IMG/VR virus record: IMGVR_UViG_648276653_000019
Length of the DNA stretch: 45,892 nt
Reading direction: 5' to 3' (one strand)
Origin: a virus
Lineage: Duplodnaviria; Heunggongvirae; Uroviricota; Caudoviricetes
Position numbers: made by a program. Within the stretch, counting starts at the first letter, position 1. The number at the start of each line of letters is the position of its first letter. This document shows positions 35,801 to 38,800 of the stretch, one piece after another.

Positions 35801-38800
35801 GTATTTACACCAATATGCTGATCCGTGCGCTTGAGGTCACTACCGACAGGACGTCGGAAAATATTCTATCTGCCGTGCTGACGCTCCGGGAAGTGATTAT
35901 CACAAGCACAACCACCACACATGTGGCTCCAAAGTCCAATATGAAGTTAGGGGCGAATACCTCTGCCGTGCAAAACTCCGGGGTGAAAACGCCAGTGCAA
36001 AAAAATGAATCAATACTGAGCCGGTTAAGTGGCTTTGTAGCGGGAGGGTAAATGACGATCAGCGAAATCCCTCTTTCCCCGGAAAACCAGCGATTCTCCA
36101 TATCCGTGGCAGGTCGAAGTCTGCAAATGGCTGTGACCTGGCGCGCTGCTTTCTGGTGTCTGGATATTATGGATAGCAGTGGTGCGGACCTGATAAAGGG
36201 GATCCCGCTTATCACCGGCGCCGACCTGCTGGCGCAGTATCGCTATCTCGGGCTTGGCTTTTCGCTTTATGTGGGCTGCGACAACCAGTCCAGCGAAAAT
36301 CCAACTGAGGCCGATCTGGGTATTTACAGCCATCTTTATGCGGTAGCGGAGTAAAAATGTCTCAGAACTGGATGCGGCACTTCGAATTGCAGTTAGTCGA
36401 TTCGAAGGGGAACGCCACTGATTTTGGTAGCTTCAAGAGCACTTTTACTATCGACTGGTTTAATCTCAGCAGCGAAACGCGAGTAGGTACTTTCAAAATC
36501 TATAACCTTTCAGCTGATACCGTAAACCGGATCGTCGGAGAGGAATTCTCCCGGATTAGGGTTATCGCTGGTTACGATGGCATTGCAGCTGACGTTCCCG
36601 CCAGCCAGGTAGGCGTCGCCAGGACAGTAAACCCCGATGAAGTTGGGCAGATGGACGGTCGAAATTATGGGCTGATTTTCGACGGAGAAATCCGGTACAC
36701 CATCACAGGGAAAGATAACCCCGTTGATAGCTTTGTCCTTATTCAGGCGGCTGATTCTGACCGGGCATTCGCTACCTCGATCACTGCGCAGACGCTGGCG
36801 GCTGGCTATACGGTCTCTGACGTCAATGCAGTGCTCATGAAGGACTTCAACGCTAACGGAGCCACGGAAGGGAATACCCCTGCCATGCCTGCAACGGTGT
36901 TTCCTCGCGGCAGGGTGCTTTTTGGTATGACCAGGCATCTAATGGATAACGTCGCCGAGCAATGCAAGGCTGACTGGATGTTTGTCGACGGTAAGCGGGA
37001 AATGGTGGCGAAAAATGAGGTTGTTCACGAAGCCATTAAACTGAACAGCGCCACCGGCCTTGTCGGCATGCCTCAGCAGACCATTGGTAGCGGCGTTAAC
37101 GTCCGTTGCCTGATTAACCCTAACATCCGCGTTAATGGCCTGATCGAGCTGAATCAGGCTTCTGTGTTCCGTACAGCACTGGGGAATAGCGATATCGCCA
37201 TGACGCAGGGGCGTATCACTGACCAGAACAACAACGGAAACATCACCATTGAAGGCACGACTGCGCAGCCTGCCAGTATTGCGACTGACGGCGTTTATAT
37301 TGTCCGTGGCATTATGTACACTGGCGACACAAGGGGCCAGGCGTGGTACATGGATATGATGTGTGAAGCGCGTGGCGCGATGGATCTAAAAACTCAATCA
37401 GCACTGGAGAGAGGCGCTGGGTGAAAAAAATTATTGATATTGATCGCTTTTATTTTCTGCACCGGCACTTTCTGCCATCCAATGTGGCGGTTACAAGCTA
37501 ACTATTAACGATTCTGAGGGTCTGGTAAGAATCAATGGAGAATTGGTTACCAGTCAAAAGGTTAAATATCTCGGAAAGAAAGGTGACGAATCAAATGCCA
37601 AATGGGATATGGGTATAATGCCTTCCCGTGATGGAAATAATTACGGATTTCAATTCATCAAGCGGGATGGCAAATCTTGGCTCAATGTTCAACTGCTACA
37701 GAACAGTATGGATGCGCCTAAATTGATTGGTTCATATCCATGCAAAACAGTATAAAAAAGCCCTGAGTTAATCAGGGCTAAAATCTCACTGCTTAAATAT
37801 TTGCGATAGAACTATGGCGGCAATGATGAAAACTGCAAGCCTCCACCAATGGATCCCTTCCCTTTGAGCCGTTGGTTCCTGTTCTGAAAATTCCTCTTCC
37901 GATGTAGCTTTTCCAGATTTTTTCCCTGGGCCAACGGTGTATGACAAACCGGATCCCGGAATTCCAACGGTGGTTTTTATTCCTCTTCCACTTATGTTGG
38001 TAGTGGCGCCTTTTGGGCCAATCGACGTACTAACGCCACTCTTGCTGATATTGATTGCTAGGCCTGGAGCTATGCGTATCCGCTTCCTAAATCTGAAGCC
38101 CATAGGTATCTCCTGTAGTCAAAAATACTAAGTAATTAAATTTTTATTCTACCCCTCACTAAGTGAGGGTAATCATTATCTGGAGAAAACATGGGCGTAT
38201 CAAGCCAAACCCGTAGTGGGGCGCTGGCGGAGGTTCTGGCGTCTGAGCGAAAGACGCTTAGCGAGCAAATGCGCGTAGCACTGCCGGGGATCATCCAGTC
38301 ATTCGACCCAGAATCTTTGACGGCTGTTGTTCAGCCAGCGATCCGCTACATCGAGCGCGACAACGACGGCAACAAAAGCACGAAGGATTATCCGCTGCTG
38401 GTGGATGTTCCAGTTGTATTCCCCCGCGGGGGCGGCTGTACGCTCACTTTTCCCGTTAGCGAAGGCGATGAGTGTCTGGTGATATTTGCCGACCGCTGCA
38501 TTGATTTCTGGTGGCAAAGCGGGGGTGTACAGGAGCCGGTAGACGGGCGCATGCATGATTTATCGGATGCGTTCTGTATCGTGGGCCCGCAGTCGCAGGC
38601 GAAGAAAATCGGCGGCATCAGCACTACGGGAGCGCAGCTGCGTACCGATGATGGTTCGGCTTTCATTGAGGTGGCCGCCGGAGGGGATATCACTGCCACC
38701 ACCGCCGGCAGCGCGACTATTAACGCCCCGGAAATCGTCCTTAACGGCAACGTGACGATCAACGGCAACCTGTCGCAAGGAATGGGTGAGAGAGGAGGCA

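What the first reader, a model, noticed from the sequence alone, without database searches (positions are those of the whole stretch)
37425..38190. Convergent moron pair in the tail module, including a DUF4236 gene on the opposite strand
An AT-rich ~770-bp insertion between the tail hub-like gene and the baseplate spike gene contains a minus-strand DUF4236-like gene (37786..38103), antisense to the late operon, and a plus-strand 70-aa ORF. The two converge on a perfect 8-bp hairpin that can terminate the minus-strand transcript. The plus-strand reading frame stays open upstream without a start codon and reads like a mature secreted protein (...SAIQCGGYKL...), while an adjacent frame encodes a signal-peptide-like stretch (KKLLILIAFIFCTGTFC) after an A7 tract, suggesting a frameshifted or slippage-dependent secreted or lipoprotein gene.
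Basis: partly seen in the sequence, partly recalled or inferred. Interest (0 to 1): 0.6.

Follow-up and report, generated by a model that had tools for sequence, protein, structure and literature searches.

The report
Broken exported-protein gene beside DUF4236 moron
Between two tail-baseplate genes of a temperate E. coli/Klebsiella phage lie a conserved gene for a small exported protein, broken here by two extra bases that may well be sequencing errors, and an intact opposite-strand accessory gene of unknown function; the arrangement is ordinary for prophages.

Summary
The sequence features are real. The 37421-38190 segment is AT-rich and holds two genes.

**Plus-strand gene (37421-37755).**
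- It is a disrupted copy of a conserved 110-aa exported protein (PHROG 3443, RefSeq WP_000734772.1).
- All relatives read GTG-KKLLILIALFSAPALSA-IQCGG..., with the start overlapping the hub stop codon.
- The window has two +1 homopolymer insertions: A6->A7 at 37424-37430 and T3->T4 at 37448-37451.
- No other record has them. An IMG/VR contig is identical to the window over 19,356 nt except for these two bases.
- A local sequencing or assembly error is slightly favoured over a recent real mutation. Programmed slippage is not supported.
- The protein has a signal-peptidase-I site and is not a lipoprotein.
- It is not a lineage-specific moron. A homologue follows the hub gene in all 80 homologue-selected loci and in 72 of 78 hub-selected loci.

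**Minus-strand gene (37786-38103).**
- It is an intact DUF4236 domain with a C-terminal membrane anchor.
- It has a sigma-70-like promoter and an intrinsic terminator of its own, so it is a true moron.
- It sits in a hypervariable cargo slot that elsewhere carries PD-Lambda-1, a YafO-type toxin and an Mrr-type nuclease.

The function of both proteins is unknown. Interest is modest.

The parts
36357..37424 (+). Baseplate hub gene (context). Its TGA stop at 37422-37424 overlaps the GTG start of the next gene.
   Evidence: ORF list. Weak Pfam E217_GP41 match, 26.2 bits against a cut-off of 27.
37421..37755 (+). Disrupted copy of the conserved 110-aa exported-protein gene ('sec', PHROG 3443, WP_000734772.1). 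It reads through only if one A and one T are removed.
   Evidence: Alignment to intact copies. PHROG 3443 at E 6.7e-48. 255 homologues.
37424..37430 (+). A7 tract. Relatives have A6, so this is the first +1 insertion.
37448..37451 (+). T4 tract. Relatives have T3, so this is the second +1 insertion.
37421..37476 (+). Coding region of the Sec-type signal peptide (MKKLLILIALFSAPALSA in relatives). In the window it is split over three reading frames.
37477..37752 (+). Mature domain of 92 aa, intact in frame. Two conserved Cys (mature residues 3 and 89). Predicted small up-and-down beta-barrel.
37543..37755 (+). Residual 70-aa TTG-start ORF. It is an artefact of the disruption, not a complete gene.
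37759..37779 (-). Intrinsic terminator for the minus-strand (DUF4236) transcript: 8-bp stem, 5-nt loop, then a T-run that overlaps the sec stop codon. There is no T-run on the plus strand.
37786..38103 (-). Intact 105-aa moron gene. DUF4236 beta-sheet domain (residues 3-56), acidic disordered linker, C-terminal transmembrane helix (about residues 85-103).
   Evidence: Pfam. PHROG 18347. Homologues and hydrophobic-segment scan. AlphaFold2 model.
38110..38114 (-). AGGAG ribosome-binding site, 6 nt upstream of the DUF4236 ATG.
   Evidence: Read directly from the sequence.
38153..38169 (.). 7-bp inverted repeat CCCTCAC-TAA-GTGAGGG. It occupies the position of the plus-strand terminator (CCCGCC-N4-GGCGGG-T6) found upstream of the spike gene in other lineages. 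Here it has no T-run.
38175..38203 (-). Sigma-70-like promoter TTGATA-17-GATAAT (10 of 12 matches) for the DUF4236 gene. The -35 hexamer lies inside the first codons of the spike gene.
   Evidence: It is the only 10-of-12 match in 20 kb. The region is identical in all 14 DUF4236-bearing loci.
38191..38922 (+). Baseplate spike gene (context).
   Evidence: Pfam N-terminal spike domain at E 3.8e-44 plus the Apex motif.

Best explanation
The window is a temperate phage with lambda-like early genes, a Q antiterminator and a SEN34-type contractile tail. Two different things lie between the hub and spike genes.

**(1) The exported-protein gene ('sec'), 37421-37755.**
- It belongs to a small family of exported proteins that is a fixed part of this tail module.
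- Its start codon overlaps or abuts the hub stop codon, so it is probably transcribed and translated with the late operon (inferred).
- It carries a signal-peptidase-I signal peptide. The mature 92-aa protein is a predicted beta-barrel with two conserved Cys that probably form a disulfide (inferred).
- In this window two +1 homopolymer insertions, A6->A7 and T3->T4, lie 24 nt apart inside the signal-peptide codons. As written, the DNA can give only a 26-aa peptide or a leaderless 70-aa fragment.
- The insertions are private to this sequence. I judge a local sequencing or assembly error somewhat more likely than a very recent real slippage mutation, about 60:40. Neither reading involves programmed frameshifting.

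**(2) The DUF4236 gene, 37786-38103.**
- It is a self-contained moron on the opposite strand.
- It has a sigma-70-like promoter at 38203-38175, an AGGAG ribosome-binding site and an intrinsic terminator at 37779-37759.
- It encodes a basic six-stranded beta-sheet domain, probably cytoplasmic, tethered to the inner membrane by a C-terminal helix.
- It occupies a hypervariable cargo slot between sec and spike that holds known anti-phage genes in sister phages.
- Inferred: it is expressed from the repressed prophage and acts at the membrane as an accessory factor of the exclusion or defence type. Q-modified late transcription reads through it in antisense during lytic growth.
For: **Frameshift**
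- Alignment to E. coli, GZ7 and RCIP0034 copies shows exactly two extra bases. The intact ORF translates to a 110-aa protein.
- Against a 98%-identical prophage, these are the only indels in the 8.2-kb aligned block that contains the gene. The only other indel in 22.6 kb of late region lies 3 nt from an alignment end.
- IMG/VR contig L091 is identical to window 26535-45892 with no mismatches and only these two gaps.
- All 20 fetched loci checked, and all 31 E. coli genomes that carry the segment, lack the window allele.
- The double-insertion allele is absent from IMG/VR, from the genome collection with one genome per species, and from JGI metagenomes. Both single-insertion intermediates are absent from IMG/VR.

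**Family and export**
- 255 homologues have a hydrophobic leader, an AxA-type site and two conserved Cys.
- The AlphaFold2 model has pLDDT 87.6.

**Synteny**
- sec follows the hub gene directly in all 80 loci selected by sec homology and in 72 of 78 loci selected by hub homology.
- A distant phage has a lipoprotein carrying a sec domain in the same position.

**Moron**
- The Pfam DUF4236 match.
- Promoter and terminator.
- The DUF4236 gene is present in only 14 of the 80 loci.
- 105 of 120 homologues have a hydrophobic helix.
- Structure model.

**Slot cargo**
- PD-Lambda-1 at E 3.6e-84, a YafO toxin and an Mrr_cat nuclease.
- GC is 0.42-0.44 for sec and cargo, against 0.53-0.55 for hub and spike.

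**Late-operon control**
- A Q antiterminator gene lies at 19307-19930.
Against: - No reads are available, so error and real mutation cannot be separated.
- The promoter is only a consensus match. The scan found fewer promoter-like sites than shuffled sequence gives (14 found against 17.9 expected).
- There are no expression data.
- Neither protein matches PADLOC, NCBIfam or any solved structure by sequence. Fold matches are generic.
- The exclusion or defence role of the DUF4236 protein rests only on its genomic position and its membrane anchor.
- sec has moron-like low GC, and its alleles are shuffled independently of the hub gene (hub 98% identical with sec 70% identical). Its status as a 'core' gene is positional, not proven by function.
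Confidence: 0.75

Rival explanations
1. The two insertions are genuine. The exported-protein gene is a recently decayed pseudogene in this prophage, made by replication slippage with or without selection against the protein.
For: - Both changes lie in homopolymers, where slippage occurs.
- The rest of the late region shows no homopolymer noise, so the assembly is not generally error-prone.
- Other records contain frameshift-like variants of this gene (P0116, P0108) and of the DUF4236 gene (P0126, P0127, P0129, P0130).
Against: - Two independent neutral events 24 nt apart, with zero substitutions in 19.4 kb relative to L091, are improbable.
- No intermediate allele exists in IMG/VR.
- The allele is unique among all collections searched.
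Confidence: 0.35
2. The gene is expressed through programmed ribosomal frameshifting or transcriptional slippage at the A7 and T tracts.
For: An A7 run directly after the start codon could allow rare RNA-polymerase slippage (general knowledge).
Against: - Every relative has an uninterrupted ORF with A6/T3, so slippage is not a feature of the family.
- The window needs two separate corrections.
- A single -1 shift at the A-run runs into TGA stop codons at 37435 and 37441.
- A T4 run is too short for efficient slippage (general knowledge).
Confidence: 0.03
3. The exported protein and the DUF4236 protein are a functional pair, for example a prophage-expressed defence gene with a late-expressed counter-defence or immunity gene, as in the phi80 TaiEcA/AtiEcA noncontiguous operon.
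For: - The architecture is the same: an antisense gene interrupting a Q-dependent late operon, next to a sense-strand small gene (PMC11364771).
- All 14 DUF4236 loci carry the same sec allele, 99-100% identical.
Against: - sec is present with every kind of cargo and also with no cargo at all, so it is not specific to DUF4236.
- The co-occurrence is explained by physical linkage within one recombining block.
- There is no sequence similarity to TaiEcA or AtiEcA.
Confidence: 0.1
4. The 70-aa ORF (37543-37755) is the complete gene, and no signal peptide exists.
For: It is the only ORF with a canonical start in that frame in the window.
Against: - Homologues are 108-117 aa with conserved leaders and an N-terminal Cys.
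- The 87-aa calls in Salmonella are start-codon miscalls. The leader is intact upstream of them.
Confidence: 0.02
5. The DUF4236 ORF is a silent remnant with no function in this phage.
For: There are no expression data, and frameshifted copies exist in some Klebsiella records.
Against: - The ORF, ribosome-binding site, promoter region and terminator are intact and identical in 14 loci whose flanking spike alleles differ.
- Both domains are conserved in homologues 67-92% identical.
Confidence: 0.1

Closest known systems
HK97 gp22 / gp23 ('moron' and 'reverse moron') between tail genes I and J
   Same: A convergent pair of small genes inside a tail operon, one on each strand, flanked by putative terminators (annotation of NC_002167).
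   Different: - No sequence similarity.
- Here the plus-strand member is conserved in the whole phage group rather than lineage-specific.
HK97 gp15, the first described moron: a small inner-membrane superinfection-exclusion protein in the tail operon (PMC3594210)
   Same: - A small membrane protein gene with deviant GC.
- It has its own promoter and terminator and is embedded in tail genes.
- It is proposed to be expressed from the prophage.
   Different: - gp15 lies on the same strand as the operon, has an N-terminal membrane helix and belongs to the YebO family.
- The DUF4236 protein is C-terminally anchored, unrelated in sequence and functionally untested.
phi80 TaiEcA/AtiEcA noncontiguous operon (PMC11364771)
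   Same: An opposite-strand accessory gene interrupts the Q-controlled late operon, so late transcription can damp it.
   Different: - No homology.
- The phi80 genes lie next to the lysis and cos region, not in the baseplate module.
- There is no evidence here for tail-assembly inhibition.
Exported phage proteins that block reinfection: T4 Spackle, phi80/N15 Cor, T5 Llp (from general knowledge; Cor annotation)
   Same: Small signal-peptide or lipoprotein products encoded beside tail or host-recognition genes. Cor also has Cys residues near both ends of the mature protein.
   Different: - No sequence similarity.
- sec is conserved while tail fibres vary, which argues against a blocker specific to one receptor.
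- No promoter of its own was found, so expression is probably late.
MliC/PliC/PhiA periplasmic beta-barrel inhibitors of peptidoglycan hydrolases
   Different: - No Pfam match.
- Avidins and other generic barrels score higher.
- The tape-measure protein of this phage has no transglycosylase domain to inhibit.
Pfam PF14020 (DUF4236)
   Same: Full-length domain match, E 5.4e-21.
   Different: The family has no known function. One paper in the searched library mentions it, and only in passing.

Membership tests
Pfam DUF4236 (PF14020) | HMM score above the gathering threshold over the whole domain | tested here: met
   75.3 bits against a cut-off of 27. Residues 3-56 match profile positions 1-55 of 55.
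Moron (Juhala/Hendrix sense, as summarised in PMC3594210) | Present in some genomes and absent from closely related ones | tested here: met
   - DUF4236 gene: present in 14 of 80 loci. Other loci have different cargo or none.
- Not met for the plus-strand gene, which is present in 72 of 78 hub-selected loci.
Moron (Juhala/Hendrix sense) | Base composition different from the surrounding genes | tested here: met
   GC is 0.39-0.48 against 0.53-0.60. Across loci, cargo is 0.42 and sec 0.44, against hub 0.53 and spike 0.55.
Moron (Juhala/Hendrix sense) | Own promoter | tested here: inconclusive
   TTGATA-17-GATAAT at 38203-38175 is the best match in 20 kb and is correctly placed. Consensus scans are not significant overall.
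Moron (Juhala/Hendrix sense) | Own terminator | tested here: met
   8-bp GC-rich stem followed by a T-run on the minus strand. -20.9 kcal/mol, z = -4.8.
Moron (Juhala/Hendrix sense) | Expression from the repressed prophage | not testable with these tools
   Needs RNA-seq or reporter assays in a lysogen.
Sec-dependent secreted protein (signal peptidase I) | Basic n-region, hydrophobic h-region, small residues at -3 and -1 before the cleavage site | tested here: met
   - By inspection of intact homologues: MKK + LLILIALF + APALS|A, and AMA|A, SFA|A, ANA|A in other alleles.
- No dedicated predictor was available.
- Not met by the window sequence as written, because the leader is frameshifted.
Bacterial lipoprotein (signal peptidase II) | Lipobox L-[AS]-[GA]-C | tested here: not met
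   The residues before the conserved Cys are A-[IF]-Q. A distant member, P0254, does have LSGC.
Programmed frameshift or slippage gene | The shift site is conserved and needed in relatives | tested here: not met
   All relatives have a continuous ORF.
MliC/PliC lysozyme-inhibitor family | Sequence-profile match and a specific fold match | tested here: not met
Known anti-phage defence families (PADLOC-DB 2.0) | HMM match | tested here: not met
   No hit for either protein at E <= 1.
phi80 Tai/Ati, phi80 Cor, HK97 gp15/gp22/gp23 | Sequence homology | tested here: not met
   No significant blastp or profile hits. All hmmsearch scores are 1.8 bits or lower, and blastp E values are 1.1 or higher.

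The most novel reading that the evidence does not exclude
The gene directly after the baseplate hub in SEN34-type temperate myophages always encodes an exported protein. It is usually the PHROG 3443 beta-barrel. In six hub-selected loci no sec homologue was found, and the two inspected carry an unrelated lipoprotein or a secreted protein in that position. In one distant phage it is a lipoprotein fused to the barrel. This would point to an uncharacterised, late-expressed periplasmic function tied to the tail tip, such as exclusion of reinfection or protection of the envelope. The slot next to it would be a previously undescribed hotspot for anti-phage cargo, in which the membrane-anchored DUF4236 protein is a new exclusion or defence factor.
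Probability: 0.25. Interest if true: 0.55.

Novelty: new member of a known kind. Interest (0 to 1): 0.3.

Why it matters
For this window, the practical point is annotation. The 70-aa ORF should not be called as a gene. The locus should be marked as a frameshifted copy of a 110-aa exported protein, and the source reads should be checked.

More broadly, the comparison shows two things.
- The hub-to-spike junction of this widespread group of E. coli, Klebsiella and Salmonella prophages combines a conserved exported protein of unknown role with a swap-in cargo slot.
- That slot already holds at least one validated defence system, PD-Lambda-1.

This gives a defined place to look for new prophage-encoded exclusion or defence genes, with the DUF4236 membrane protein as one candidate. 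None of it departs from the established picture of morons and defence hotspots in prophages.

Tried and rejected
- **Profile libraries for both proteins.** PADLOC and NCBIfam gave no hits. PHROGs gave only families of unknown function.
- **Fold searches.**
  - The sec model against BFVD gave nothing at E <= 0.001.
  - The AlphaFold database library was unavailable.
  - The DUF4236 model gave only generic curved beta-sheets.
  - Profile searches against PDB sequences found nothing.
- **Idea that sec inhibits a tail-borne lytic transglycosylase.** One distant relative's tape-measure protein has an SLT domain, but the window's does not. The idea is kept only as a weak possibility.
- **Idea that the many 87-aa Salmonella calls show recurrent N-terminal truncation.** Rejected. 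The upstream leader is intact, so these are start-codon miscalls.
- **Search for a separate promoter for sec inside the hub gene.** None was found in the window, and only weak 9-of-12 matches in two other loci.
- **Search for the window's allele or single-insertion intermediates in public collections.** None was found.
- **Homology to phi80 TaiEcA, AtiEcA and Cor, and to HK97 gp15, gp22 and gp23.** None.
- **Literature on DUF4236.** One paper mentions it in passing, with no functional data.
- **Other ORFs.** The plus-strand 64-aa ORF (37937-38131) and the minus-strand 51-aa ORF (37812-37967) are shadow ORFs of the DUF4236 gene.
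Full report
**What the window is**

- The window carries lambda-like early genes, a Q antiterminator (19307-19930, Pfam Antiterm), a lysis cassette and a contractile-tail module.
- The tail module reads Dit-like protein, plug, hub, spike, gpW-like protein, baseplate J and DUF2612 protein.
- Its closest records are 'Wanchaivirus PDP110P2', the Klebsiella phages GZ7, RCIP0034 and RCIP0098, and E. coli prophages such as the one beside tRNA-Arg in strain RM9513.
- More distant relatives include Salmonella phage SEN34 and Klebsiella phage Mulock.

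**Observation check**

- GC falls to 0.385-0.485 across 37400-38200, against 0.53-0.60 on either side.
- The minus-strand ORF 37786..38103 (105 aa) is a full-length Pfam DUF4236 match, E 5.4e-21.
- The plus strand has a 70-aa TTG-start ORF at 37543..37755. Its frame stays open back to 37444 with no start codon.
- The two genes converge on a perfect 8-bp stem with a 5-nt loop at 37759-37779.
  - A T-run follows the stem only on the minus strand.
  - Minus-strand RNA folds at -20.9 kcal/mol, z = -4.8, and none of 200 shuffles folds as well.

**The plus-strand gene is frameshifted, by two bases**

- The 1001-nt query around the finding matches 31 complete E. coli genomes and 4 phage genomes at 99.7-99.8% identity. 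Every match listed spans 999 nt, not 1001.
- The alignment shows the only differences: the window has A7 where the relatives have A6 (37424-37430), and T4 where they have T3 (37448-37451).
- In the relatives, RefSeq annotates a 333-nt gene (WP_000734772.1) whose GTG start overlaps the hub TGA stop as GTGA.
- That gene translates to VKKLLILIALFSAPALSAIQCGGYKL...PCKTV, 110 aa.
The real leader is a chimera of two of the window's frames. The stretch 'FIFCTGTFC' is out-of-frame read-through.

**Are the two extra bases real?**

- Against the 98%-identical RM9513 prophage, these are the only indels in the 8.2-kb aligned block that contains the gene. The only other indel in 22.6 kb of late region lies 3 nt from an alignment end. 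The assembly is therefore not generally noisy at homopolymers.
- IMG/VR contig UViG_648276666_000014 (19,356 nt) is identical to window 26535-45892, with zero mismatches and only these two one-base gaps.
- All 20 fetched loci checked have A6/T3.
- All 31 E. coli genomes that carry the segment match the 141-nt query at 98.6% identity, so none has the window allele.
- The double-insertion allele is absent from IMG/VR, from the genome collection with one genome per species, and from JGI metagenomes. Both single-insertion intermediates are absent from IMG/VR.
- Two independent neutral mutations 24 nt apart, with no substitution in 19.4 kb, are unlikely. Two clustered homopolymer over-calls in a locally poor stretch are a familiar artefact.
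- I therefore favour an error at about 60:40. Only reads can decide.
- In either case the DNA as written gives a 26-aa peptide from the GTG start, or at best a leaderless 70-aa fragment.
- Programmed slippage is not supported.
  - No relative needs it.
  - Two corrections would be needed.
  - A -1 shift at the A-run meets TGA stop codons at 37435 and 37441.

**What the plus-strand protein is**

- It belongs to PHROG 3443, of unknown function. It has no hit in Pfam, NCBIfam or PADLOC.
- There are 255 homologues in the 90%-identity clustered protein database. The named ones are all Enterobacterales: Klebsiella, Salmonella, Escherichia, Yersinia, Serratia, Photorhabdus, Pantoea and Edwardsiella.
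- An exhaustive profile search of 1.84 billion cluster representatives finds only 63, so the family is small.
- Homologue features:
  - All intact full-length members examined have a basic and hydrophobic leader ending in an AxA-type site.
  - The leader is followed by [A][IF]QC.
  - A second conserved Cys lies 4-7 residues from the C-terminus.
- The residues before the first Cys are A-I-Q, which is not a lipobox. This is a signal-peptidase-I substrate, not a lipoprotein.
- The mature domain is strongly conserved, with motifs NGExVTSQK, DGNNYGF and LNVQLLQNSMDAPK.
- AlphaFold2 predicts a seven-stranded up-and-down beta-barrel, pLDDT 87.6.
  - Brucella PhiA scores 6.5, a T6SS immunity protein 6.6 and PliC 5.9.
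- BFVD gives nothing significant.

**It is a fixed part of the module, not a moron**

- In all 80 IMG/VR loci recovered with the protein, the gene lies directly after the hub gene. Hub identity in these loci ranges from about 54% to 100%.
- Its start overlaps or sits within about 25 nt of the hub stop codon.
- In a second set of 78 loci, recovered with the hub protein, 72 have sec in that position.
- No sec homologue was detected after the hub gene in the other six.
  - In the two I inspected, a different exported protein occupies the position.
  - L108 has a 241-aa lipoprotein with the lipobox LTAC. L151 has a 154-aa protein with a signal peptide.
- In a distant phage, the post-hub gene is a 292-aa lipoprotein (lipobox LSGC) with a C-terminal sec domain.
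- sec has moron-like low GC, averaging 0.44 against 0.53 for the hub gene. Its alleles are also shuffled relative to the hub gene: a hub 98% identical can sit beside a sec 70% identical.
- No sigma-70-like promoter was found upstream of sec in the window. I infer that it is made with the late operon.

**The DUF4236 gene is a true moron in a cargo slot**

- The distance from the end of sec to the start of the spike gene ranges from 65 nt to 1.9 kb.
- Only the 14 loci with the 99-100% identical sec allele carry DUF4236.
- Other loci carry different cargo:
  - a PD-Lambda-1 defence protein with a T5orf172/MUG113 domain, PADLOC E 3.6e-84, in 7 loci
  - a YafO-type toxin gene, in 6 loci, in several of them beside a 192-203-aa gene with no Pfam match
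  - a membrane-anchored Mrr_cat nuclease
  - a pair of genes of about 276 and 153 aa with no Pfam match, each found in 17 loci
  - other proteins with signal-peptide-like N-termini and small proteins with no Pfam match
- Cargo GC averages 0.42.
- Expression signals of the DUF4236 gene:
  - The best promoter-like site in 20 kb, TTGATA-17-GATAAT at 38203-38175.
  - An AGGAG ribosome-binding site 6 nt before the ATG.
  - The minus-strand terminator.
- The whole stretch from the DUF4236 start codon to about 70 nt inside the spike gene is identical in all 14 loci, even where the rest of the spike gene is only 67-68% identical. The cassette therefore moves as one block whose right edge lies inside the spike gene.
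- In other lineages a plus-strand terminator, CCCGCC-N4-GGCGGG-T6, sits just upstream of the spike gene.
  - In the window the equivalent position holds the hairpin at 38153-38169.
  - Its T-run is replaced by TAATCATTATC, and the ATTATC within that is the -10 hexamer of the minus-strand promoter.

**The DUF4236 protein**

- The AlphaFold2 model (mean pLDDT 75.8) shows three parts:
  - a six-stranded meander sheet at residues 6-56, pLDDT about 85
  - a disordered acidic linker at residues 60-79
  - a helix at residues 85-103
- Of 120 homologues, 105 have a strongly hydrophobic segment. In the roughly 100-aa members it lies at the C-terminus. Longer Vibrio and Shewanella members add an SH3 domain after it.
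- The N-terminal domain is very basic. I infer an N-in, C-terminally anchored inner-membrane protein.
- The domain occurs in 50 phage records, with hosts in Proteobacteria, Firmicutes and cyanobacteria.
- No functional literature exists in the searched library.

**How it most likely works**

*Shown*
- The gene structures, the two insertions and the synteny.
- The variability of the cargo slot.
- The presence of the promoter-like and terminator-like sequences.

*Inferred*
- In a lysogen the DUF4236 gene is transcribed from its own promoter and stops at the hairpin. This avoids long antisense RNA against the sec and hub genes.
- During lytic growth, Q-modified polymerase reads the late operon through both hairpins, antisense to the DUF4236 gene. 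Experiments on phi80 taiEcA showed such damping by late transcription (PMC11364771).
- The membrane-anchored product most plausibly acts as an accessory factor of the exclusion or defence type. HK97 gp15 is the precedent for a small membrane protein encoded by a tail-operon moron (PMC3594210).
- In intact phages, sec is exported late in infection. Its conservation while fibres and spikes vary suggests a host-envelope or conserved tail-tip target. I cannot say more.

**Comparison with known systems**

- HK97 is annotated with a 'moron' (gp22) and a 'reverse moron' (gp23) that converge between tail genes I and J, with putative terminators.
- Neither protein here is similar in sequence to HK97 gp15, gp22 or gp23, or to phi80 TaiEcA, AtiEcA or Cor.

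**Verdict**

- The frameshift is real in the sequence, private to it, and may well be an artefact.
- The DUF4236 gene is an ordinary moron of unknown function.
- The more interesting by-products are the invariably exported product of the post-hub gene and the adjacent cargo hotspot.
- Interest is 0.3. The finding is a new member of a known kind.

Noticed in passing
L018, L021, L031, L034, L036, L042, L047, L055, L062, L065, L079, L080, L083 (about 15-25 nt upstream of the spike ATG); window 38153-38169: A conserved plus-strand intrinsic terminator, CCCGCC-N4-GGCGGG-T6, sits just upstream of the spike gene in lineages without DUF4236, whether or not cargo is present. In L034 an identical copy also lies between the plug and hub genes (1897-1918). 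The window has a hairpin without a T-run at the equivalent position.
   Followed up: partly
L062:3364-4593, L065:3406-4435, L080:3382-4209, L083:3393-4223 with L041:4135-4596: The slot between sec and spike carries PD-Lambda-1 (T5orf172/MUG113), a YafO-type toxin gene with an upstream gene that has no Pfam match, a membrane-anchored Mrr_cat nuclease, and a pair of genes of about 276 and 153 aa that each occur in 17 loci and have no Pfam or PADLOC match. It looks like a defence or cargo hotspot.
   Followed up: partly
L108:11073-11798 and L151:4493-4957: Six of 78 hub-selected loci have no detectable sec homologue after the hub gene. In the two inspected, the position holds a different exported protein: a 241-aa lipoprotein and a 154-aa protein with a signal peptide. 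The two appear related to each other.
   Followed up: partly
L088:4001-4879 (protein P0254): A distant phage has a 292-aa lipoprotein with a C-terminal sec domain directly after its hub gene. Its tape-measure protein carries an SLT transglycosylase domain, which the window's does not.
   Followed up: partly
Proteins P0126, P0127, P0129, P0130 (DUF4236) and P0116, P0108 (sec): Frameshift-like variants of both genes exist in other public records, mostly Klebsiella. Their tails match alternative reading frames of the same DNA.
   Followed up: no
window 26535-45892 versus L091: An IMG/VR provirus contig matches the window exactly up to the window's last base, apart from the two inserted bases. This suggests the same or a near-clonal source genome, cut at the same gene boundary.
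   Followed up: partly
window 42374-44785: The 803-aa tail-fibre or spike-like protein carries a C-terminal GDSL lipase/acylhydrolase domain (Pfam E 8.7e-10). This could be a surface-polysaccharide deacetylase used for host recognition.
   Followed up: no
L085-L087 (Salmonella, for example LS483490.1): In these Salmonella loci the genes called downstream of sec are an AlpA-like regulator and an HTH/Peptidase_M78 protein on the opposite strand. No gene in the 2.5 kb after sec had a spike-type Pfam hit.
   Followed up: no
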